NCBI GenBank assembly: GCA_030145325.1
Contig: JAQYVW010000005.1
Coordinates: 24,749-88,748 of the forward strand
Source of the DNA: Desulfurivibrionaceae bacterium
Lineage (GTDB): Bacteria > Desulfobacterota > Desulfobulbia > Desulfobulbales > UBA5123
Length of the DNA: 64,000 nucleotides
Direction of reading: 5' to 3'
This document shows, in pieces, positions 4,423-13,610 of this stretch. The notes under the pieces were generated by a model, which was not told where the DNA came from, did not search any database, and saw only the letters and a program-made list of their open reading frames with translations. The position numbers and the translations under genes were made by a program. Numbering within the stretch: position 1 is the stretch's first letter; each line of letters starts with the position of its first letter.

Positions 4423-4509
4423 GCCCGGATGGCGGAACTGGTAGACGCAAGGGACTTAAAATCCCTCGGTCGCATGACTGTGCGAGTTCGATTCTCGCTC
4501 CGGGCACCA
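4423..4509 (+). tRNA. tRNA-Leu (anticodon UAA)
   Basis: 87-nt cloverleaf. Acceptor GCCCGGA/TCCGGGC; anticodon stem AGGGA/TCCCT with loop CTTAAAA; long variable arm (class II). T-arm GCGAG-TTCGATT-CTCGC and encoded CCA. Near-identical layout to enterobacterial tRNA-Leu(UAA). Confidence 0.93.
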
Positions 4510-4902: not shown

Positions 4903-4985
4903 GGGAGGACAGGAGACGTTGTTTAATTGTTGAAAAAAGAGTGTTTTTCATATTCAACAATTAAACAACGTCCCCTCTGTCCCTC
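4903..4985. repeat. palindromic MITE-like repeat, copy A (both arms, short loop)
   Basis: Left arm ..GAGACGTTGTTTAATTGTTGAA and right arm TTCAACAATTAAACAACGTCCCCTCTG are inverted complements around an ~18-nt loop. The right arm recurs at 11201-11225 and 13583-13607. Confidence 0.8.
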
Positions 4986-5148: not shown

Positions 5149-6093
5149 TCAATGCCTCCTTCTTTGGCTTATAATACTTGCCGTTTTCTCCATCACTATA
5201 TCCATGGCGTTATAATAATCTCGCTGAGCCTTAACATTTGAGAGCTTGCAATAACGTTGGGTCGTTTTTATTCTGTTATGACCTAGTAGATCCTGGATTG
5301 TGACAAGATCAGCATCTGCGTTGAGCAATTTGGTTGCCATTGTATGGCGGAGTTGATGGCAGGAAACCGATACCGCACTTTGTTTAGAGTAATATTCAAC
5401 CCGTTTTTGGATACCACGGACAGAGATCGGCTTACCTTTGTAATTCCCTTTTTCAACTAGAAATACCAGTTGTTCTCTGGTGACAGGTCTTATTTGTAAA
5501 TATGCTGCCAGGGTTTCTGCAGCATCATTGCTAAGATATACCACTCTGTCCTTAGCCCCTTTCCCACTCCTTACCATTATTTGACTACGCCTGTAGTCAA
5601 TAGCTCCCAGGGTTAGATTTGCCACCTCTTCAACTCGAAGACCGCAACGCAGCATAAGCATGAACATGGCCATGTCCCGTGGTTTCGTAATGCTCCTGAG
5701 GAAAATGACAACATCACTATCACGAAGATGCCGAGGAAGTGGTTTGGGAAGACGAAGTGCCAGTTTTTTGATCACTGGGTTAGAGATCTGAAGACCCTCT
5801 TCATCTTTCAAATAATTATAAAATTTTCGGATGGCGACCAAGTGGCTATTAATAGTCTGCGGTGACAAGCTTTTTTCGAGAAGAAAATCTATATAACATT
5901 TCACATTCCTGGAAGTCACTGATTCAACAGGAACCGCAACCCACACGATGAATTTTTGTATTCTATGAAGATAATTCCTATCTGTTTGCACGGCTAAATC
6001 CACAGAGCTTTTCGAGCTGCGGCATAACTGAACTTTTTGTTTGCATAACCGTAGAAAAGATAATCCCCGTTTGTATTTCTTACCTTTAACCAT
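5149..6093 (-). CDS. tyrosine recombinase / site-specific integrase (apparently intact)
   Basis: Core-binding SAM-like region (SPQTINSHLVAIRKFYNYL). Catalytic Arg box LRCGLRVEE, HQLRHTMAT, LLGHNRIKTTQRY with the Tyr nucleophile. The start is uncertain because the ORF overlaps the upstream ORF by 100 nt. Confidence 0.85.
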   Translation of the reverse strand: MVKGKKYKRGLSFLRLCKQKVQLCRSSKSSVDLAVQTDRNYLHRIQKFIVWVAVPVESVTSRNVKCYIDFLLEKSLSPQTINSHLVAIRKFYNYLKDEEGLQISNPVIKKLALRLPKPLPRHLRDSDVVIFLRSITKPRDMAMFMLMLRCGLRVEEVANLTLGAIDYRRSQIMVRSGKGAKDRVVYLSNDAAETLAAYLQIRPVTREQLVFLVEKGNYKGKPISVRGIQKRVEYYSKQSAVSVSCHQLRHTMATKLLNADADLVTIQDLLGHNRIKTTQRYCKLSNVKAQRDYYNAMDIVMEKTASIISQRRRH

Positions 6094-6878
6094 TTCCGTA
6101 AGGCCCTCTCTGCATCTTCTGTAAAATGTACAACTCTGCCTTGGTAATTTTTCTCCCCAAGGTAAATCAGGATTTTTTGTTCCGGCAAAATAATGTCTGA
6201 AACTTTGACATTTAACAATTCGCCGATTCTCATCCCGGTTCGAAGCAATAACAGGATCATTGCCTGGTCACGGACATTGTTGACCACAACGAGTAATGCT
6301 TCAAGGTCTTCTGCAGGGATGGCCCGGGGCAGCAACTCAGGAAGTTTGAGTTGGATTTTTTTGTCGAGAATATCAGGTTCTAAAATTCTGTGGTCAACCA
6401 GGAAACGGAGAAAGGCATATATACCCTGTAGGTTTGTTTTTATTCCGCCAACCTTTAAACCACGGTTCTGATTATTTCCTATATATGCATAAATATGCTG
6501 CCGGGAGAGTTCTTCAATGCTGCTGATCCCGGACAGCATGAGAAATGATAGAAAAGAGATAATAACGCCGCCAGACTGCCTGATAGTGCTGGTTGCCAAA
6601 TTGTTTCTATATTTATGCTGTAGATAAGAAACTGCATGCTCAGCGCCAGGCAAGCTACTGTTTGATAACCTTTGGCTGAAATGGTTAAGCACCCGACGTT
6701 TTTCTGTTGGTGCCTGAGCTACAGGTAGCGCTGTGATCGGAGAAAAATATTGAGATGAAAAATTTGTTTGTGCTTGTTGATACTCGAAAAAGGTAGGGGG
6801 ATGTTGATGGGCAGACAAGAGCCCAAGATAGATTTGTTCACTTTGATGTGGAATTGCAGCTATTTTTTCCTCGGCCAT
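5994..6878 (-). CDS. tyrosine recombinase-like protein, C-terminally truncated (lacks HxxR / H / Y boxes)
   Basis: Core-binding region and Arg box (LLLRTGMRIGEL) are present. The ORF stops (..AAARKALWI*) before the HxLRH and Tyr motifs that the downstream paralogue retains. Confidence 0.6.
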   Translation of the reverse strand: MAEEKIAAIPHQSEQIYLGLLSAHQHPPTFFEYQQAQTNFSSQYFSPITALPVAQAPTEKRRVLNHFSQRLSNSSLPGAEHAVSYLQHKYRNNLATSTIRQSGGVIISFLSFLMLSGISSIEELSRQHIYAYIGNNQNRGLKVGGIKTNLQGIYAFLRFLVDHRILEPDILDKKIQLKLPELLPRAIPAEDLEALLVVVNNVRDQAMILLLLRTGMRIGELLNVKVSDIILPEQKILIYLGEKNYQGRVVHFTEDAERALRKWLKVRNTNGDYLFYGYANKKFSYAAARKALWI

Positions 6879-7085: not shown

Positions 7086-10000
7086 TCAATCTGACCCCTT
7101 TGGTTCTTCGCTTGCCAAGAGGGGGCTAGTCCGCAACGCCGCAGTGTCTTCGGCCTGTTCTGGCGACGGTGCCTGCAGAGGGCGCGTAAGTCGGCGGCAG
7201 CGAAGACTCTTCCGCGTCACCTCGATCTCCTCCGCCAATTCCGATCCGCTGTAAGCCAGCGAGGTCTCGTGGCGCGCATAGCGGCTGTCGCGACTTGCGC
7301 TGAACCAGTTGAACGAGCCAGCGCAGTAAATATCATCGTCAACGAGAATTAGTTTGCTGTGCACGCGAGCGACGAAGGCTGTTTCTATTCCGTCTTTCTG
7401 CAGCGCGTCCACCGCCGCTTGCAGCCGCAGTTTTTTTTCTGCTGCAAGGGTGGAATTCGGCGCCTCGGTGTTCCACTCCTGGTCGGTGTAGATGCTGACG
7501 CTAACGCCTCGTTTTACGGCGGCGCGCATCGCCTCTAGCGCTCCAATCTCCTTTATGCACCGCAATTGGAGCCAAGGGGTGACGATCTGTATCTCATGAA
7601 CGGCCTTGGCCAACGCGGTGAGCAGGTAGCTATCGTGCTCCTGGGCATCTCGTAGCTGACGTAAGTTCTTATGTAGCGGGGTGAGATCCTTGCGCTGCTG
7701 CGGCTCGAAATTCAATGCGTTGCTCGGCTTGTGACACAAATAGGTTAAGAGAAGCCCACGCGGTTTGGACTTCGGGGAAAGCTCGAGGACGTCCATGTCG
7801 CCGAAGACGAGGAAGCTGTCCTTGGCACGAGAGACGGCAACGTTTAGCATGCTAGGACTATTATCGATAAACTCGCCGTTGGCATGCTTAGAGTAGACGG
7901 GGGAAAAGATCACTACTGGCCGCTCGGCCCCCTGTAGGGAATGGACGGTGCCCACCGTCATTCCCTCCTTGCTACCGGCGATGATGCCTCGGGCTTGGCA
8001 GGACTGCAGGATCGCCTGCACTTGGCTGCCAAAGGGCGTGACCACGCCGACGATCTGGGCTAGCGTTTTTTCGTAACGCGTCTCTAACTCCGCCTTGTGT
8101 TCGACCAGCCAAGTGGCGATGATGTCTGCCTCCAGCAGATTCTGACGACTGCCGCCGTTGCTCCATTGACATATGCCGTCCACGTGCAGGTAGCCCATCG
8201 CCGGCAGCCCTACGCCCGCAGGACGCGAGCCGCGTTTGGGAAGGAGCTTGTTGCGATAGCACAGTTTATTGCAGTAGTCGACGATCTCGTCGAAGCAGCG
8301 TCGGTGCTCGTAGAGGAACATGCCACGGGTGAGGTCGGGGTCATAGTGATAGCGGCTGACGTTTTGCGCGATGCGCATGACACTGCCGGAGGCGGCTGCC
8401 TTACCCTGTTCGGCAAGCTGCGCGTACGCCTGCTTGGGGTCGGCGCTGCAGATGATCTTCGCACTGACCATGTTACCGATATCCACCTGTGCCGGAATCG
8501 ACCATATGGGCTCGATCTGTAGCGTGTCACCGATGACAAGCGACCTCTTGGCCAAGGCGAAGGAGGCACCCGCAACCTCTGGCAGCACCTGCCCGGCCTC
8601 ATCGACGATCAGCAGATCAATGAAATCATAGAGGTAGTCGGTAACGAATTCACCGTCATCAAAGCGCTTTACCTGCATCTCTGCCGGCAGCATAAAGAAG
8701 GTTGAAACAACGCAAGGCGTGAGCTTCATGCGTCTTCGCCAGCGCTTCTCCATCGTAACACGACCGCTCTTGCGCTTCTCCTTTTCCAATTCCGGCAGCA
8801 ACGCCTCCATCTCAAGCAGCCAGCGGCCTTCCCAATAGTGGGTCGTCAGCAAAAAAATTGGGAAGCGTATGGCGGTGTCGGCCAGTACGTCGCACTCCGC
8901 CAGCGAGAGAATCTCCGCCTGTTCCGAGATGCCCAACGGCTCCAGCGCCGCTCGCCAACGCTCCAACTGCGCCTGCTCTGCCTTAAGGACCGCCTCACCG
9001 CGTTGCACGATGTGCCGCTTTTCCCTCAGCATGGTGGCGAGCTGCTCGCGTCGAACCTGTGTCGCAGCTTCTATTTCGTCAACATTGTTCCCTCCGCGCA
9101 GCGCGGATTCGGCAGGAAAGTGCTCCTTGAGGAACAGCCTAGCAAGGCGTAGCCGCTTGTTGGCAACGGGTGGCAACCATGTGAACAGCGAGTAGAGAAT
9201 AGACTCCTTTGCAAGATAGGCCTCCCATCGCTCGACCACGGCGCCGAAGGCCTGATGCTGGGTCTCGATCTCTGCCTCCTGAAGCCGGCGTTCTGTCATG
9301 GCTGTGGCCGGATCCTCGCCGATCTCACGCTGAACCGCCTCGCGCGCAAGGACAAGTTTCTGCCAGACGTCATCAAGCGCGGTCAACTTGTCCAACTCGA
9401 CGCGGATCGCTTCTCGTAACGCCTTGACAGCATCGATGAGTGTTGGGTTTGCGATTTCGGGAAAAGCGGTTGCGGCTGCCTGGAGATAGGTACGCTTGGC
9501 GCGCTCGACGTATTCCGGTGACTCGACCTGTTCGAAGAAGGCGCGGGTCTGGTACTTGGTGGCGCTCTCGACTTCCTTGCCCTTGGCCGGGAAGTAGGCG
9601 CCGAAGCTCTGGATATCCGGCAGCCAACGACCGGCAAAGCAGCCTGAACCGATAGCAAAATCCTTGCCGAATGCGTCGATGATGTTCGTCACCGCCTGGT
9701 TGTTGGTGGACGCGGCCACGATAACGGGCGGCTCACCATTCTCATCCAGCGCCGCACGCGCCCAGAGTGAGGCAACCACTGAGAGCAGCATTGTAGTCTT
9801 GCCGGTACCCGGCGGGCCGTTGACGGCAAGGACGTCCCCATGGCGCCCCTCCAGCAGGTGAGACAGGGCGTCACGTTGAGCCTGCGCCAATGGAAAAGAG
9901 TCGCCGGCGTGACCCATACGGGCTGCGAAGGCTGCACTGGCCTGTAAGCAAGTCTCGGGCGGCGCTACCTGCTCGCTGGCGTAGCGTTCGAACAACGGGA

Positions 10001-10757
10001 CGGAGGGCACACTCTTGCGCATGTGGTCATAGAGGCCGAGGATGTGCTTACTAGCGCCTTTTACCGAGGCTCTTTTCTCGAGGTACCAGTAATTAGCCAG
10101 CTCAAAGTCGCCAGCAGTGGCCGGCCAGCCTTTGCCAACGAAATCGAACAGATCCACTGCATGGGCCAGACACCGCGACCAGAGCTCCTCTTCATTTAGC
10201 CCATGGGGGGAATCTTTGCCACCGAGGGCTGGAGTTTTGGTCAGGAAGGCATCCATATCCTCAAACGCACCGATCGTGAATGCACAACGGTCCATCGGCT
10301 CGAGTATGTCGCGCGGCATTATGGTCGTGGAGGTTGGCCGCAACCGACCGTCACGACCCAGTTCGGCCATGATCAAAAGCGGCGTCACCACATCGGGTAC
10401 ACCGGTACGTCGTCTCTGGGCGTGCTCGAGCTGCTGCAGGTAAACTATAGGACGAACGACAACCTCGATGGCATGCACATGCTCAGGCTCTTCGGCAAAC
10501 AGCGCGGCGATCTCGCTAATATCGATGTGTCCGACGCGCAGCTCATCCAGTGCCCTGCGCAGAAAGACCTTGGTCTCCCCCTCCCGCAACGCGCCGCTGC
10601 CGTGTTCGCTGTCTGCCAGGGAGTTTCGCCAGTAGGCAGCGTATGCAAGAAAGGTTTCATTCATTAGTCTTCTTCTTTTCCTCATGGTTATAGGCAACCG
10701 GGCATCTTGCCGGGAAGTGCCTTCAAGGGTAGTGGAGAGTTTGGTCTGGTTTGACAA
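7086..10757 (-). CDS. SF1 (Upf1/DNA2-like) helicase fused to a C-terminal PLD/HKD nuclease; type II Mokosh (MkoC)-like architecture
   Basis: Walker A NGPPGTGKTT, Walker B LIVDEAGQV, VGTVHSLQGAERPVVIFS and NVAVSRAK helicase motifs. One C-terminal HKD motif: HSKLILVDD...GSFNW. About 300 aa at the N-terminus have no call. The TTG start in the track is doubtful; ATG candidates are at 10685 and 10664. Confidence 0.8.
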   Translation of the reverse strand: MSNQTKLSTTLEGTSRQDARLPITMRKRRRLMNETFLAYAAYWRNSLADSEHGSGALREGETKVFLRRALDELRVGHIDISEIAALFAEEPEHVHAIEVVVRPIVYLQQLEHAQRRRTGVPDVVTPLLIMAELGRDGRLRPTSTTIMPRDILEPMDRCAFTIGAFEDMDAFLTKTPALGGKDSPHGLNEEELWSRCLAHAVDLFDFVGKGWPATAGDFELANYWYLEKRASVKGASKHILGLYDHMRKSVPSVPLFERYASEQVAPPETCLQASAAFAARMGHAGDSFPLAQAQRDALSHLLEGRHGDVLAVNGPPGTGKTTMLLSVVASLWARAALDENGEPPVIVAASTNNQAVTNIIDAFGKDFAIGSGCFAGRWLPDIQSFGAYFPAKGKEVESATKYQTRAFFEQVESPEYVERAKRTYLQAAATAFPEIANPTLIDAVKALREAIRVELDKLTALDDVWQKLVLAREAVQREIGEDPATAMTERRLQEAEIETQHQAFGAVVERWEAYLAKESILYSLFTWLPPVANKRLRLARLFLKEHFPAESALRGGNNVDEIEAATQVRREQLATMLREKRHIVQRGEAVLKAEQAQLERWRAALEPLGISEQAEILSLAECDVLADTAIRFPIFLLTTHYWEGRWLLEMEALLPELEKEKRKSGRVTMEKRWRRRMKLTPCVVSTFFMLPAEMQVKRFDDGEFVTDYLYDFIDLLIVDEAGQVLPEVAGASFALAKRSLVIGDTLQIEPIWSIPAQVDIGNMVSAKIICSADPKQAYAQLAEQGKAAASGSVMRIAQNVSRYHYDPDLTRGMFLYEHRRCFDEIVDYCNKLCYRNKLLPKRGSRPAGVGLPAMGYLHVDGICQWSNGGSRQNLLEADIIATWLVEHKAELETRYEKTLAQIVGVVTPFGSQVQAILQSCQARGIIAGSKEGMTVGTVHSLQGAERPVVIFSPVYSKHANGEFIDNSPSMLNVAVSRAKDSFLVFGDMDVLELSPKSKPRGLLLTYLCHKPSNALNFEPQQRKDLTPLHKNLRQLRDAQEHDSYLLTALAKAVHEIQIVTPWLQLRCIKEIGALEAMRAAVKRGVSVSIYTDQEWNTEAPNSTLAAEKKLRLQAAVDALQKDGIETAFVARVHSKLILVDDDIYCAGSFNWFSASRDSRYARHETSLAYSGSELAEEIEVTRKSLRCRRLTRPLQAPSPEQAEDTAALRTSPLLASEEPKGSD

Positions 10758-11166: not shown

Positions 11167-11228
11167 GTTCTTTTTTATATATCAACAAGATAGTCAATTA
11201 ACAATTAAACAACGTCCCCTCTGCCCCC
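11167..11228. repeat. MITE-like repeat, copy B (right half only)
   Basis: TTTTTTATATATCAACAAGATAGTCAATT..CAATTAAACAACGTCCCCTCTGCCCCC is nearly identical to 13547-13610. The left arm GGGGACGTTGTTTAATTG is absent. Confidence 0.8.
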
Positions 11229-11431
11229 TAGGGAGTACGCCTGATTTTCTATGCTTGTCAGGGCCATAATATAGATCTGTCCCGGTTTTGTATTGCGATT
11301 CTCTGGAACCACTCCCTTTTTAGCTCTACCCTAACGGTCAGATTGTGCTTGACTTTGGCGCTTTGTTTTTTGGATAGTTTTGAAAGGACTCTTTTTTATT
11401 TCAATCATCCCAACCAAACAAAGGAGACAGA

Positions 11432-11686
11432 ATGACCAAAAAAGATGTAAAGAAGTTATTAGCTGGGCTTGGTATAGCGAGTCTGCTTGGCGGCTGCTCG
11501 ATGATGGGCCATGATGGACAAGCTGGTGCCAGTGGCTGAGGAAGCAGCAAAACGGGTGCAGGTAGCACCCACACTGAGATCGAAAAGGCACCTGGCAGTG
11601 GTTGAAGTGGCACCACCGATGGTGCAGTTAGCACCCAGCAAGAAGAAAACAAGAAAAAACCCGGCAGTGGCTGAGGCGGGAGTTAA
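11432..11686 (+). CDS. predicted selenocysteine-containing precursor peptide (84 aa, three in-frame UGA)
   Basis: AAGGAG RBS 5 nt before the ATG. Reading TGA as U gives MTKKDVKKLLAGLGIASLLGGCSMMGHDGQAGASGUGSSKTGAGSTHTEIEKAPGSGUSGTTDGAVSTQQEENKKKPGSGUGGS. TGA codons at 11537, 11603 and 11672 are all in one frame, each after (G/A)-S-G encoded by GSCAGTGGYTGA. No other stop occurs until TAA at 11684. SECIS-like hairpins follow each TGA, and a radical SAM/SPASM gene lies 120 nt downstream. Confidence 0.6.
11554..11570 (+). promoter_or_regulatory. SECIS-like hairpin 1
   Basis: GGGTGC-AGGTA-GCACCC. The GGTGC stem starts at +19 from the T of TGA-1. The apical loop contains GGU. Confidence 0.45.
11621..11635 (+). 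promoter_or_regulatory. SECIS-like hairpin 2
   Basis: GGTGC-AGTTA-GCACC. The stem starts at +19 from the T of TGA-2, the same spacing as hairpin 1. Confidence 0.45.
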
Positions 11687-11691
11687 TCTGC

Positions 11692-11709
11692 AAAGTGCGG
11701 TCGCACTTT
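11692..11709 (+). promoter_or_regulatory. SECIS-like hairpin 3 (extends past the TAA stop)
   Basis: AAAGTGC-GGTC-GCACTTT begins at +21 from TGA-3. No T-run follows, so it is not a typical terminator. Confidence 0.4.
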
Positions 11710-11733
11710 ATGGTAATCGCCTCAGGCAAATGG

Positions 11734-11769
11734 GGGCCAGAAGGTGTATCAACCCTTTGGCCCTTTTTT
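11734..11769 (+). terminator. intrinsic terminator/attenuator between precursor and maturase genes
   Basis: ~10-bp stem GGGCCAGAAGG/CCCTTTGGCCC (one wobble, one mismatch) followed by T6. Confidence 0.6.
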
Positions 11770-11806
11770 ATTGTTCAGACAAGAAATGTAAACTGGAATA
11801 CTGACC

Positions 11807-13432
11807 ATGGCGACAAATCAGGAGCAGAGAGATCTAGAGCAAATTTTCCCCGTCTGCCGCATGATTGTTGGGGAACAGGTCTGGCAGGAGTTACTGAGTC
11901 TTTCCCCGAAAACATCCCCGGAAAATCTGCCTGCTTTCCTTGCCGATTTCGGCCAGGGGCAGGTCGTCCCTCCTTACCTTCCTGAACTGGCAAGGCTCGA
12001 AAGGACTTTTAATAAGGCCACCATGGCCCAGGCTGATTTCAGCCGCCCGGCAGAGCGGCCAGTTTTAAATCCAACCTTGGAAATACTGGAGCTATCCTGG
12101 GAAAATCTTGCGTCTTTGCTTTTTGAGGACGCGGCGACGGACATCGCCCGGCCCGAGAAAAGTCCTGAGTGGGTGGTGGTTTTCCGGGGGCCACAGTCCC
12201 AAAAAATGCGCTGCCGGCCAGCCACTGACCAGGAACTATTAGCCCTTAAAGTTGTTGCTGCCGACTTAAACCCGGATCAGGTGGCCCTGGAAAACCACGT
12301 ACCACTCGGGGTAATTGACCGAGCTCTCAGCCATGCTGATAGGATGGGGCTGACGCTGGCTCCAGAATCCAAAATACGGAGAAACCCTGCTTTCTTTACC
12401 GGTCGCAAGGCAATGGAACAATTCCAGATCGCCCCGGTGTTCACCCTCCAGTGGCATATCACCCAGAGCTGCGATCTCCATTGTCGCCATTGCTATGACC
12501 GGAGCAGCATGATGGAGCTGGAGCTGGATCAGGGGATGGCTATCCTGGACGACTTTAAATCATTCTGCCGGAGCCGTCATGTTGATGGACATATCTCCTT
12601 TACCGGCGGCAACCCTCTCCTCTACCCACACTTCAATACCCTATACCAGCAAGCGGCGGATCTTGGTTTTTCCCTGGGCATTCTTGGTAACCCGGCCGCC
12701 AAAGAGCGAATCGAAGAGATCATGGCCATCTCTGAGCCGGTTTTCTATCAGGTCAGCCTGGAGGGGCTCCGGGAGCAAAATGATTTCATTCGCGGCCCTG
12801 GCCATTTTGACCGGGTCATTGATTTTCTTTCGATCTTAAAAGATCTGGATCTTTACTCCATGGTCATGCTGACCCTGACCGAAGACAATCGGGATCAGGT
12901 TTTGCCATTGGCAGAGGAGCTGCGGAACAAGACCGACCTTTTCACTTTCAATCGCCTCTCCCTAACCGGGGAGGGCGCGCAATTGCAATCCACCCAACGA
13001 GACGGCTTTGAGTCTTTTTTACAAGAGTATATCCAGGCCGCGAAAACCAACCCGGTTATCAGCCTGAAAGACAATCTCCTCAATATCATTCGTTATCGAG
13101 AGGGCGGCGATCTCTTCGGCGGCTGTGCCGGTTTTGGTTGCGGGGCAGCCTTTAACTTTGTTTCCCTGCTGCCGGATGGCGAGGTTCATTCCTGCCGGAA
13201 ATTTCCTTCGCCAATCGGCAATATCTTTGAGCAATCCCTGGCGGCCATTTATGACGGCCCGCAGGCTGAGCAATATCGAAACGGCCCCCAAGCCTGTAAT
13301 GATTGTCCCATCCGGCCGGTCTGTGGCGGTTGTCTGGCGGTTGGTCACGGTATGGGTATTGATATCTTTACTGAGCAAGATCCTTACTGCTTCATGTCGC
13401 AGACAGAAAGAGAGGCTGGCTTGATGCGTTAA
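11807..13432 (+). CDS. radical SAM/SPASM-domain peptide maturase with ~200-aa N-terminal extension
   Basis: CX3CX2C cluster motif in QSCDLHCRHCYD. SPASM cysteines: CGAAFNFVSLLPDGEVHSC (CX12GX4C), CNDCPIRPVCGGC and DPYC. It is adjacent to the multi-UGA peptide. Confidence 0.88.
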   Translation: MATNQEQRDLEQIFPVCRMIVGEQVWQELLSLSPKTSPENLPAFLADFGQGQVVPPYLPELARLERTFNKATMAQADFSRPAERPVLNPTLEILELSWENLASLLFEDAATDIARPEKSPEWVVVFRGPQSQKMRCRPATDQELLALKVVAADLNPDQVALENHVPLGVIDRALSHADRMGLTLAPESKIRRNPAFFTGRKAMEQFQIAPVFTLQWHITQSCDLHCRHCYDRSSMMELELDQGMAILDDFKSFCRSRHVDGHISFTGGNPLLYPHFNTLYQQAADLGFSLGILGNPAAKERIEEIMAISEPVFYQVSLEGLREQNDFIRGPGHFDRVIDFLSILKDLDLYSMVMLTLTEDNRDQVLPLAEELRNKTDLFTFNRLSLTGEGAQLQSTQRDGFESFLQEYIQAAKTNPVISLKDNLLNIIRYREGGDLFGGCAGFGCGAAFNFVSLLPDGEVHSCRKFPSPIGNIFEQSLAAIYDGPQAEQYRNGPQACNDCPIRPVCGGCLAVGHGMGIDIFTEQDPYCFMSQTEREAGLMR

Positions 13433-13504: not shown

Positions 13505-13610
13505 ACGTGAGGGTTAGGGGACGTTGTTTAATTGTTTAAAGAAGAGTGTTTTTTTTATATATCAACAAGATAGTCAATTCAGCAATTAAACAACGTCCCC
13601 TCTGCCCCCC
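13505..13610. repeat. palindromic MITE-like repeat, copy C (full length)
   Basis: Left arm GGGGACGTTGTTTAATTG (13517-13534) and right arm CAATTAAACAACGTCCCC (13583-13600) are perfect inverted complements. The loop matches copy B. Confidence 0.8.

What the first reader, a model, noticed from the sequence alone, without database searches (positions are those of the whole stretch)
11537..11709. Each TGA is followed by a SECIS-like hairpin, two at exactly the same offset
GGTGC-AGGTA-GCACC and GGTGC-AGTTA-GCACC both begin at +19 from the T of TGA-1 and TGA-2. TGA-3 is followed at +21 by AAAGTGC-GGTC-GCACTTT. That hairpin extends past the TAA stop and has no T-run, so it is not a typical terminator. 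From memory, the E. coli fdhF SECIS apical region reads GGUUGCAGGUCUGCACC, which is very similar in stem sequence and in the G/U-containing loop. Three hairpins phased to three TGAs are hard to explain by chance.
Basis: partly seen in the sequence, partly recalled or inferred. Interest (0 to 1): 0.8.

Follow-up and report, generated by a model that had tools for sequence, protein, structure and literature searches.

The report
Three SECIS hairpins in a selenopeptide gene
The three hairpins are real and are very probably the RNA signals that make the ribosome insert selenocysteine at three UGA codons of a small precursor peptide (SbtA) encoded next to its radical-SAM maturase (SbtM); this selenium-containing natural-product system is already known, so the locus is a new member and not a new kind.

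Summary
An 84-codon ORF (11432-11686, +) runs through in-frame TGAs at 11537, 11603 and 11672. Each is followed by a short G+C-rich hairpin at the stated offsets.

The ORF is an SbtA-type RiPP precursor. SbtM, the thio(seleno)oxazole radical-SAM maturase, follows directly (11807-13432; TIGR04082, 727 bits).

Within the window alone the hairpins are only weakly better than shuffles. Comparative evidence is decisive:
- Among 67 SbtA genes found next to SbtM in metagenomes, 107 of 132 distinct UGA contexts carry the same hairpin (GUGC, a G[G/U]N loop, GCAC) at the same distance. The rate is about 10% at random positions or other TGAs, and 4 of 26 after Cys codons.
- The stems covary, including at synonymous sites and in hairpins lying in the 3'UTR.
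- A covariance model built without the window places its three best hits in 64 kb exactly on the three TGAs.
- All four criteria of the published bacterial SECIS consensus are met.

The family, and a SECIS right after its TGA, were already described (Haft and Basu 2011; Lewis et al. 2021, as cited in PMC9204691 and PMC11002830). Novelty is low. Sec insertion itself remains untested.

The parts
11423..11426 (+). Shine-Dalgarno-like GGAG, 5 nt before the ATG of sbtA
   Evidence: Read directly from the sequence.
11432..11686 (+). sbtA: 84-codon precursor peptide, MTKKDVKKLLAGLGIASLLGGCSMMGHDGQAGASG-U-GSSKTGAGSTHTEIEKAPGSG-U-SGTTDGAVSTQQEENKKKPGSG-U-GGS, ending in TAA
   Evidence: Translation. The N-terminal 24 aa match NCBIfam TIGR04081 (SbtA) at 30.3 bits against a cutoff of 30.5. 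It aligns with 66 SbtA peptides found next to SbtM. The closest orthologue, L002, keeps all three UGAs and the frame.
11537..11539 (+). UGA-1, predicted Sec codon (motif SG-U-G)
   Evidence: Start of the best R1 hit.
11554..11570 (+). SECIS-1 hairpin GGGUGC-AGGUA-GCACCC: 6 bp, 5-nt loop, 20 nt between UGA and loop. It encodes part of T-G-A-G-S-T-H.
   Evidence: Fold of -11.6 kcal/mol, z -2.57. R1 gives 43.9 bits, E 2.7e-7. Same codon phase as 60 of 61 internal orthologous hairpins.
11603..11605 (+). UGA-2, predicted Sec codon (SG-U-S)
11621..11635 (+). SECIS-2 hairpin GGUGC-AGUUA-GCACC: 5 bp, 5-nt loop, 20 nt between UGA and loop. It encodes G-A-V-S-T.
   Evidence: Fold of -7.6 kcal/mol, z -2.20. 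R1 gives 37.3 bits, E 6e-6. A competing hairpin at 11610-11625 appears in the MFE of the 49-nt fragment.
11527..11637 (+). Two copies of a 66-nt coding module (11527-11571 and 11593-11637), each holding a UGA plus its hairpin. This explains the identical offsets.
   Evidence: the repeat finder family D1, 73% identity, spacing 66.
11672..11674 (+). UGA-3, predicted Sec codon (SG-U-G), 4 codons before the TAA stop
11692..11709 (+). SECIS-3 hairpin AAAGUGC-GGUC-GCACUUU: 7 bp, GGUC tetraloop, 24 nt between UGA and loop. It lies wholly in the 3'UTR.
   Evidence: Fold. R1 gives 14.1 bits, E 0.34, the third-best hit in 64 kb, starting at the TGA. 45 of 46 terminal UGAs in orthologues have such a hairpin. 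The UTR-only alignment covaries.
11671..11725 (+). Extended two-tier fold around SECIS-3. A 9-bp lower helix (11671-11679 with 11717-11725) contains UGA-3 and encloses the stop codon and the upper hairpin.
   Evidence: Fold of 11668-11728 gives -25.9 kcal/mol, z -3.64, 0 of 200 shuffles as stable. The lower helix is not conserved across the family, so its role is uncertain.
11732..11769 (+). Terminator-like hairpin (GGGCCAGA.../...UUUGGCCC) followed by a U-run, between sbtA and sbtM
   Evidence: Fold of 11722-11785 gives -21.8 kcal/mol, z -2.23. The consensus scan did not call it because the loop exceeds 8 nt. Its function is inferred.
11807..13432 (+). sbtM: radical SAM/SPASM maturase, 541 aa
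   Evidence: TIGR04082 at 727.3 bits against a cutoff of 350, full length; SPASM domain at 445-528. The CxxxCxxC motif C222/C226/C229 is invariant in the alignment. 3088 homologues at E<1e-50, many named SbtM or 'selenobiotic family peptide radical SAM maturase'.

Best explanation
The region is the 3' two-thirds of sbtA, the ribosomally made precursor of a thio(seleno)oxazole RiPP. Its mRNA carries three UGA codons that are read as selenocysteine. Each UGA has its own bacterial SECIS element: a 5-7-bp GUGC/GCAC-cored hairpin whose small loop presents G followed by G or U, 20-24 nt downstream.

Inferred mechanism, taken from the established E. coli and Moorella model: the C-terminal domain of SelB, in complex with GTP and Sec-tRNA(Sec), binds the loop of the hairpin just outside the ribosome's mRNA entry when the UGA reaches the A site. 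This lets Sec-tRNA(Sec) outcompete release factor 2. It happens three times on one short mRNA.

The first two SECIS elements are inside the coding sequence and dictate the peptide linker G-A-x-S-T. The third, serving a Sec only four codons from the stop, lies in the 3'UTR.

SbtM, encoded 120 nt downstream, would then oxidise each Gly-Sec unit to a selenooxazole, as shown in vitro for the enzyme studied by the Bandarian laboratory.

Shown here: the anatomy, family membership of SbtM, and conservation, position, codon phase and covariation of the hairpins. Inferred: SelB binding, actual Sec insertion and the final product.
For: 1. SbtM identity: TIGR04082 at 727 bits, full length.
2. SbtA leader match and SG-U-G/S motifs. 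The review PMC13188914 lists TIGR04081 'selenobacteriocin' with motif SGUG.
3. In 67 SbtA genes next to SbtM, 107 of 132 unique UGA contexts have the canonical hairpin (terminal 45/46, internal 62/86). The rate is 9.9% at random positions, 9.6% at other TGA triplets and 4/26 after core Cys codons.
4. Covariation on 60 orthologous contexts, window excluded: 82.5% of cells paired against 67% shuffled (0/500), covariation score 0.405 against 0.154, slid controls 24-48%. Pair types include GC17/CG15/UA14, AU31/GC18/GU8 and UA50/CG8. RNAalifold finds the same stem.
5. The 27 UTR-located hairpins alone, free of coding constraint: 89.3% paired, score 0.360 against 0.137, 0/500.
6. Selection on synonymous sites. 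60 of 61 internal hairpins share one codon phase. Gly/Ser codon position 3 pairs with Thr/Ala codon position 1 (T:A 48, C:G 10, T:G 2). Codon position 1 pairs with the Thr third position (G:C 40, A:T 12, G:T 8). Thr codons there are only ACC/ACT (47/47), against 58% elsewhere in the same genes. Gly is GGT in 41/46, against 30% elsewhere.
7. Covariance model R1, built without the window, gives its top three hits in 64 kb (both strands, filters off) at 11537, 11603 and 11672, each starting on the TGA (43.9, 37.3 and 14.1 bits).
8. The bSECIS consensus criteria quoted in PMC13188914 (loop 3-9 nt, stem 4-16 bp, G in the first two loop positions followed by G/U, 16-37 nt spacing, MFE <= -7.5) are all met: loops AGGUA, AGUUA, GGUC; stems 6, 5, 7 bp; spacings 20, 20, 24 nt; energies -11.6, -7.6, -8.1 kcal/mol.
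9. TGA is an ordinary stop elsewhere in the window, ending 11 of 31 long frames. Readthrough therefore needs a local signal.
10. The closest orthologue keeps all three UGAs and the frame. After UGA-1 there are 27 identical, 8 synonymous and 11 nonsynonymous codons, and indels are whole codons.
11. The literature already reports a SECIS right after the TGA of the SbtM-associated peptide, and at least 2 Sec (PMC9204691, PMC11002830).
Against: - There is no experimental evidence for Sec insertion in this organism.
- The Sec machinery (selA, selB, selC, selD) is not in the window; the only tRNA is tRNA-Leu. The rest of the genome could not be examined.
- Individual hairpins are only marginally more stable than shuffles. 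Hairpin 2 just reaches the -7.5 kcal/mol threshold and competes with an alternative fold.
- R1 scores SECIS-3 at only E 0.34.
- The SbtA HMM score is 0.2 bits under the curated cutoff, with U entered as C.
- No Rfam family matches.
- R1 does not recognise the E. coli fdhF SECIS. The upper stems lack the bulged U that I recall as important for E. coli SelB.
- 25 of 132 orthologous UGA contexts lack this hairpin form.
Confidence: 0.88

Rival explanations
1. The hairpins are a by-product of a conserved peptide motif (G-A-x-S-T) that SbtM or an exporter needs. The RNA structure itself has no function.
For: Hairpins 1 and 2 lie in coding sequence and always encode [G/S]-A-x-[S/G]-[T/A] in one phase. 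Peptide conservation would also conserve the DNA.
Against: Synonymous positions are constrained and covary with the opposite arm. The same hairpin occurs in the non-coding 3'UTR after 45 of 46 terminal UGAs and covaries there. Cys-type SbtA relatives drop the motif and shrink to 6-8-aa repeats.
Confidence: 0.04
2. Hairpin 3 is a transcription terminator or a 3'-end mRNA-stabilising hairpin and not a SECIS.
For: It lies after the stop codon. It sits within a very stable two-tier fold (-25.9 kcal/mol, z -3.64).
Against: No T-run follows it. A separate hairpin with a U-run lies 23 nt further on at 11732-11769. Its core and loop (GUGC-GGUC-GCAC) match the internal SECIS consensus. Its distance from the UGA is conserved in 45 of 46 terminal contexts.
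Confidence: 0.05
3. The TGAs are genuine stops. The gene would encode only a 35-aa peptide, or be a decayed pseudogene, and the downstream repeats would be non-coding remnants.
For: TGA is a normal stop in the window. Standard ORF calling ends the ORF at 11539.
Against: The frame, the UGA positions and the SG-U-G motif are conserved across 67 loci. Cys replaces U at homologous positions in some relatives. The substitution pattern after UGA-1 is coding-like, and indels are whole codons.
Confidence: 0.02
4. Chance: short G+C-rich palindromes arising in a duplicated, Gly/Ser/Ala-rich coding repeat.
For: Shuffle z-scores are modest. Two of the three hairpins are copies of one module. The motif count in the window is near expectation.
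Against: All the comparative evidence above argues against it. Hits of an independent model land exactly on the three TGAs.
Confidence: 0.01

Closest known systems
SbtA/SbtM thio(seleno)oxazole RiPP system (NCBIfam TIGR04081/TIGR04082; Haft and Basu 2011; Lewis et al. 2021, as cited in PMC9204691, PMC11002830 and PMC13188914)
   Same: A small precursor with a conserved KK-LAG leader and Gly-Sec motifs encoded by UGA. A SECIS follows each UGA directly. A radical SAM/SPASM maturase lies adjacent, at 727 bits to the SbtM model.
   Different: This precursor has three Sec; the review's representative is listed with 2. SbtM is only 67% identical to its nearest database relative. The SbtA leader scores 0.2 bits under the HMM cutoff. 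Nothing differs in kind.
E. coli fdhF SECIS (sequence verified)
   Same: A hairpin directly 3' of the UGA with a UGC/GCA-type stem core and a loop presenting G-G-U. SECIS-3 has the identical GGUC tetraloop. For SECIS-3 the UGA is itself part of a lower helix.
   Different: There is no bulged U in the upper stem. The loop G-U lies 3 nt (SECIS-1 and -2) or 6 nt (SECIS-3) further from the UGA than the fdhF G-U, counted on the fdhF sequence verified (the names G23/U24 are from my memory). The SbtA-derived covariance model does not detect fdhF. This is functional analogy, not sequence-family membership.
General bacterial SECIS consensus (bSECISearch model, quoted in PMC13188914 Fig. 2A)
   Same: All four structural criteria are met by all three hairpins.
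   Different: The consensus is permissive. By a comparable criterion about 10% of random positions pass, so meeting it is necessary but not sufficient.
Multi-Sec proteins such as eukaryotic selenoprotein P (from general knowledge)
   Same: Several UGA codons in one mRNA are decoded as Sec.
   Different: SelP uses 3'UTR SECIS elements acting at a distance on many UGAs. Here each UGA has its own adjacent hairpin, which forces a spacer of about 14-22 codons between Sec residues.

Membership tests
Bacterial SECIS element (bSECIS consensus model) | Apical loop of 3-9 nt on an upper stem of 4-16 bp | tested here: met
   Loops are 5, 5 and 4 nt; stems are 6, 5 and 7 bp. Criterion text from PMC13188914.
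Bacterial SECIS element (bSECIS consensus model) | G in one of the first two loop positions, usually followed by G or U | tested here: met
   Loops are AGGUA, AGUUA and GGUC. The central-loop G is invariant in 60 orthologous contexts.
Bacterial SECIS element (bSECIS consensus model) | 16-37 nt between the UGA and the apical loop | tested here: met
   Spacings are 20, 20 and 24 nt. In orthologues most loop starts fall at offsets +20 to +25.
Bacterial SECIS element (bSECIS consensus model) | Hairpin MFE of -7.5 kcal/mol or lower | tested here: met
   Energies are -11.6, -7.6 and -8.1 kcal/mol for 29-30-nt fragments. SECIS-2 is borderline.
Bacterial SECIS element (bSECIS consensus model) | Structure conserved with compensatory changes in orthologues, with the UGA aligned to Cys in some homologues | tested here: met
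   Cys-type SbtA relatives are L007, L039, L077, L005 and L009.
Bacterial SECIS element (bSECIS consensus model) | Binds SelB and directs Sec insertion | not testable with these tools
   Needs a reporter assay, EMSA or mass spectrometry.
Bacterial SECIS element (bSECIS consensus model) | The genome encodes selA, selB, selD and tRNA-Sec | not testable with these tools
   None lies in the 64-kb window; the only tRNA is tRNA-Leu. The source contig was not retrievable.
SbtA precursor (NCBIfam TIGR04081) | HMM score at or above the curated cutoff of 30.5 bits | tested here: inconclusive
   30.3 bits, E 2.5e-7, residues 1-24 against profile positions 1-24 of 27, with U entered as C. This is 0.2 bits short.
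SbtA precursor (NCBIfam TIGR04081) | Encoded next to an SbtM maturase | tested here: met
   sbtM starts 120 nt downstream on the same strand and scores 727 bits to TIGR04082.
SbtA precursor (NCBIfam TIGR04081) | Gly-Sec/Cys core motif (SGUG or GGUG) | tested here: met
   The motifs are ASG-U-G, GSG-U-S and GSG-U-G. Motif as listed in PMC13188914 and PMC9204691.
SbtM maturase (NCBIfam TIGR04082) | Full-length HMM match above cutoff, CxxxCxxC radical SAM motif and SPASM domain | tested here: met
   727.3 bits against 350, profile positions 1-516 of 516; SPASM domain TIGR04085 at 445-528. C222/C226/C229 are invariant.
E. coli fdhF-type SECIS | Bulged U in the upper stem and a fixed 11-nt spacer (from memory of the E. 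coli literature) | tested here: not met
   The stems are uninterrupted. The upper stems begin 14-17 nt after the UGA. R1 does not hit fdhF.
Intrinsic terminator (as an alternative for hairpin 3) | G+C-rich hairpin followed directly by a T-run | tested here: not met
   ATGGTAATCG follows the hairpin. The scan does not call it.
Any Rfam family | Covariance-model match | tested here: not met
   Nothing at gathering threshold except tRNA-Leu. Only noise at E<=10 in 11400-11800.

The most novel reading that the evidence does not exclude
In this family the SECIS, and not peptide function, may shape the product. The conserved G-A-x-S-T linker would be an RNA by-product. The need for one hairpin per UGA would then set a minimum repeat length of about 14-22 residues between Sec residues. 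Cys-type relatives, freed from this, collapse to 6-8-residue repeats. The three-SECIS mRNA would also be a compact natural system for studying repeated SelB-dependent recoding. Because termination at UGA-1 yields only the leader, it could possibly couple product formation to selenium supply.
Probability: 0.5. Interest if true: 0.4.

Novelty: new member of a known kind. Interest (0 to 1): 0.3.

Why it matters
It shows that standard gene calling truncates this gene at 35 codons, where it should be annotated as a three-selenocysteine RiPP precursor. It adds a divergent SbtA/SbtM pair; the nearest SbtM in the database searched is 67% identical. The comparative set assembled here (67 precursors, 132 UGA contexts) gives a sharp, testable SECIS consensus for this family: GUGC, a G[G/U]N loop, GCAC, codon-phase-locked, 20-25 nt after the UGA. 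That consensus could improve selenoprotein annotation in Desulfobacterota-like genomes and guide heterologous production of selenopeptides. It does not change what is known about Sec decoding.

Tried and rejected
- Rfam scans of the window and of 11400-11800 found no SECIS-type family.
An alignment-based metagenome scan then worked.
- An exact look-up of the window's SbtM found no contig on record. The rest of the genome, and so selABCD, could not be checked.
- Haft and Basu 2011 and Lewis et al. 2021 are not held. Their content is cited only through PMC9204691, PMC11002830 and PMC13188914.
- A literature search for 'SbtA' mostly returned the unrelated cyanobacterial bicarbonate transporter.
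- The SbtA-derived covariance model does not find the fdhF SECIS, so no sequence-family link to E. coli is claimed.
- The 9-bp lower helix around SECIS-3 was tested for family conservation and is not conserved. It is reported as a local feature only.
- A scan of the window for other genes interrupted by TGA with a SECIS-like hairpin gave no convincing second selenoprotein gene.
- Alignment A2 left out 23 of 83 orthologous contexts (near-duplicates and the two clades without the canonical hairpin). The unselected counts are those.

Full report
**Observation**

The + strand between 11432 and 11686 holds an ORF that starts at ATG 11432, preceded by GGAG at 11423-11426. It runs in one frame through three TGA codons (11537, 11603, 11672) to TAA at 11684. 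The product is:

MTKKDVKKLLAGLGIASLLGGCSMMGHDGQAGASG-U-GSSKTGAGSTHTEIEKAPGSG-U-SGTTDGAVSTQQEENKKKPGSG-U-GGS

- GGGUGC-AGGUA-GCACCC at 11554-11570.
- GGUGC-AGUUA-GCACC at 11621-11635.
- AAAGUGC-GGUC-GCACUUU at 11692-11709.

The offsets of +19, +19 and +21 (counting the T of TGA as +1) are correct. Three corrections apply:
- Hairpin 3 lies wholly after the stop codon.
- Hairpins 1 and 2 belong to two copies of a 66-nt module, so their identical offset is one event and not two.
- Thermodynamic stability alone is weak evidence. The z-scores are -0.95 to -1.56 for UGA+46-nt fragments and -1.8 to -2.6 for the bare hairpins. Around UGA-2 the minimum-energy fold prefers a competing hairpin.

**What the locus is**

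The 541-aa ORF that begins 120 nt downstream (11807-13432) is a full-length match to NCBIfam TIGR04082, 'thio(seleno)oxazole modification radical SAM maturase SbtM' (727 bits against a cutoff of 350). It has a SPASM domain and an invariant CxxxCxxC motif.

The first 24 residues of the small ORF match TIGR04081, the SbtA precursor, at 30.3 bits against a cutoff of 30.5.

According to PMC9204691 and PMC11002830:
- Haft and Basu (2011) found sbtM next to a peptide gene with an in-frame stop codon and a SECIS directly after it.
- Later annotations gave at least two Sec residues in a conserved Gly-Sec motif.
- Lewis et al. (2021) showed that SbtM turns the Gly-Cys/Sec unit into a thio(seleno)oxazole.

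The review PMC13188914 lists TIGR04081 ('selenobacteriocin', motif SGUG, 2 Sec). The window's peptide has SG-U-G, SG-U-S and SG-U-G.

**Comparative test**

An alignment of 25 SbtM homologues was used to fetch 80 metagenomic loci. Scripts found an SbtA-like ORF in 66 of them, which with the window makes 67 peptides. They carry 0 to 4 in-frame UGAs.

Of 132 distinct UGA contexts, 107 (81%) have an uninterrupted stem of at least 5 bp with a 3-5-nt loop that starts 18-28 nt from the U and has G in its first two positions. The breakdown and controls are:

| Context | With the hairpin |
|---|---|
| Terminal UGAs | 45 of 46 |
| Internal UGAs | 62 of 86 |
| Random positions in the same loci | 9.9% |
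| All other TGA triplets | 9.6% |
| Cys codons in the peptide cores | 4 of 26 |

Cys-type relatives have 6-8-residue repeats (SGKTSC) with no room for a hairpin. After a Sec the next Sec or Cys is usually 14-24 residues away.

**Covariation**

On a MAFFT alignment of 60 orthologous contexts (window excluded) the eight-pair stem gave these results:
- 82.5% of cells are paired, against 67% in shuffles (0/500) and 24-48% when the partner is slid.
- The covariation score is 0.405 against 0.154.
- Pairs switch among GC, CG and UA (17/15/14), among AU, GC and GU (31/18/8), and between UA and CG (50/8).

RNAalifold predicts the same stem independently.

The 27 hairpins that lie in 3'UTRs, where no peptide constraint exists, give 89.3% paired cells and a score of 0.360 against 0.137 (0/500).

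Inside coding sequence, 60 of 61 hairpins are in one codon phase, encoding [G/S]-A-x-[S/G]-[T/A]. The pairing partners include synonymous sites:
- Third position of the Gly/Ser codon with the first position of the Thr/Ala codon: T:A 48, C:G 10, T:G 2.
- First position of the Gly/Ser codon with the third position of the Thr/Ala codon: G:C 40, A:T 12, G:T 8.
- Thr codons at this position are only ACC or ACT (47/47), against 58% elsewhere in the same genes.
- Gly at this position is GGT in 41 of 46, against 30% elsewhere.

This rules out peptide conservation as the sole cause.

**Independent model**

A covariance model (R1) built from the 60 orthologous contexts, without the window, was run over all 64 kb on both strands with filters off. 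Its three best hits start exactly at the three TGAs:

| Position | Bits | E-value |
|---|---|---|
| 11537 | 43.9 | 2.7e-7 |
| 11603 | 37.3 | 6e-6 |
| 11672 | 14.1 | 0.34 |

The fourth hit is the reverse strand of the palindromic SECIS-3 region. Everything else is noise.

GTGC-N5-GCAC and GTGC-N4-GCAC occur nowhere else in the window.

**Fit to the SECIS definition**

The bSECIS consensus quoted in PMC13188914 requires a loop of 3-9 nt, a stem of 4-16 bp, G in the first two loop positions followed by G or U, 16-37 nt between the UGA and the loop, and an MFE of -7.5 kcal/mol or lower. All three hairpins meet it:

| Hairpin | Loop | Stem | Spacing | MFE (kcal/mol) |
|---|---|---|---|---|
| SECIS-1 | AGGUA | 6 bp | 20 nt | -11.6 |
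| SECIS-2 | AGUUA | 5 bp | 20 nt | -7.6 |
| SECIS-3 | GGUC | 7 bp | 24 nt | -8.1 |

Compared with E. coli fdhF:
- The loop G-G-U is shared, and SECIS-3 has the identical GGUC loop.
- There is no bulged U.
- The loop lies 3-6 nt further from the UGA.
- R1 does not detect fdhF.

So the hairpins work like the fdhF element but are not its sequence relatives.

TGA is an ordinary stop elsewhere in the window, ending 11 of 31 long frames. The closest orthologue (L002; its SbtM is 66% identical) keeps all three UGAs and the frame.

**Mechanism**

Inferred from the established bacterial model: SelB with GTP and Sec-tRNA(Sec) binds each hairpin loop as the corresponding UGA enters the A site, and inserts Sec three times.
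- The upstream arm of the hairpin that competes with SECIS-2 (11610-11615) would be inside the ribosome at that moment, which favours the SECIS fold. This is inference.
- SECIS-3 serves a Sec four codons from the stop, so it must sit in the 3'UTR. In this window it is also enclosed by a 9-bp lower helix that contains UGA-3 (fold -25.9 kcal/mol, z -3.64). That helix is not conserved in the family.
- A separate hairpin with a U-run at 11732-11769 may attenuate transcription into sbtM.
- SbtM would then convert each Gly-Sec unit to a selenooxazole (by analogy; PMC9204691).

**What is not shown**

SelB binding, Sec insertion and the presence of selABCD in this genome are all untested. The window has only tRNA-Leu, and the source genome could not be retrieved.

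**Verdict**

The system is a known one, the SbtA/SbtM selenopeptide, so this is a new member of a known kind. The modestly new elements come from the comparative set:
- The codon-phase-locked SECIS consensus.
- The evidence that the G-A-x-S-T linker is dictated by RNA.
- The contrast with short-repeat Cys-type relatives.
- Two clades whose internal UGAs use other hairpins.

Noticed in passing
window 11171-11228 and 13551-13609; also 4958-4984 and 13516-13536: An exact direct repeat of about 58 nt flanks the sbtA-sbtM pair (29 nt plus 27 nt at 100% identity, with a 1-nt indel between the two blocks). A third copy of its second half, with 2 mismatches, lies between tRNA-Leu (4423-4509) and two tyrosine-recombinase ORFs (5149-6878, -), which are followed by a 1223-aa SF1 helicase/PLD ORF (7086-10757, -). 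The copies at about 4900 and 13500 also carry an inverted partner arm. These could be island, cassette or MITE-like boundaries.
   Followed up: partly
L016, L036, L042, L061 (internal UGAs); L017, L029, L048, L054, L055, L062 (second and third UGAs): 25 of 132 SbtA UGA contexts lack the canonical hairpin, and most fall in two groups of loci. One has a hairpin starting directly after the UGA. The other has two different hairpins with some compensatory changes. These may be alternative SECIS forms.
   Followed up: partly
L078 (USSUGKKKGAGST) and L013 (USGKTSUSGETGAGGT): Two UGAs only 3 or 6 codons apart are followed by a single canonical hairpin that lies within the 16-37-nt range of both. One SECIS may serve two Sec codons.
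   Followed up: no
L002 and L056, 3' ends of sbtA: In L002 the apparent stop is a UGA two codons after the last Sec UGA and upstream of the same hairpin. In L056 two consecutive UGAs follow the last Sec codon by one codon. How Sec and stop readings are told apart there is unclear.
   Followed up: no
L007, L039, L077, L003; also L005 and L009: Cys-type SbtA relatives have short SGKTSC-like repeats without hairpins. L005 has Cys where L004 has Sec and has lost the hairpin. L009 has Cys but still keeps a GGUGC-AGGUG-GCACC hairpin, possibly a recent Sec-to-Cys change.
   Followed up: partly
L072, opposite strand to SbtM (reverse-complement coordinates 2006-2407): An SbtA-like leader with one in-frame UGA is fused to a domain with a CxxCH (CNTCH) haem-binding motif, 133 aa in all.
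   Followed up: no
window 11671-11679 with 11717-11725: A perfect 9-bp lower helix encloses UGA-3, the TAA stop and SECIS-3 (z -3.64). It is present in a few orthologues (L017, L020, L030) but is not conserved family-wide.
   Followed up: yes
window 11732-11769: A terminator-like hairpin plus U-run lies between the precursor gene and the maturase gene. It may set the precursor-to-enzyme ratio. The consensus scan did not call it.
   Followed up: partly
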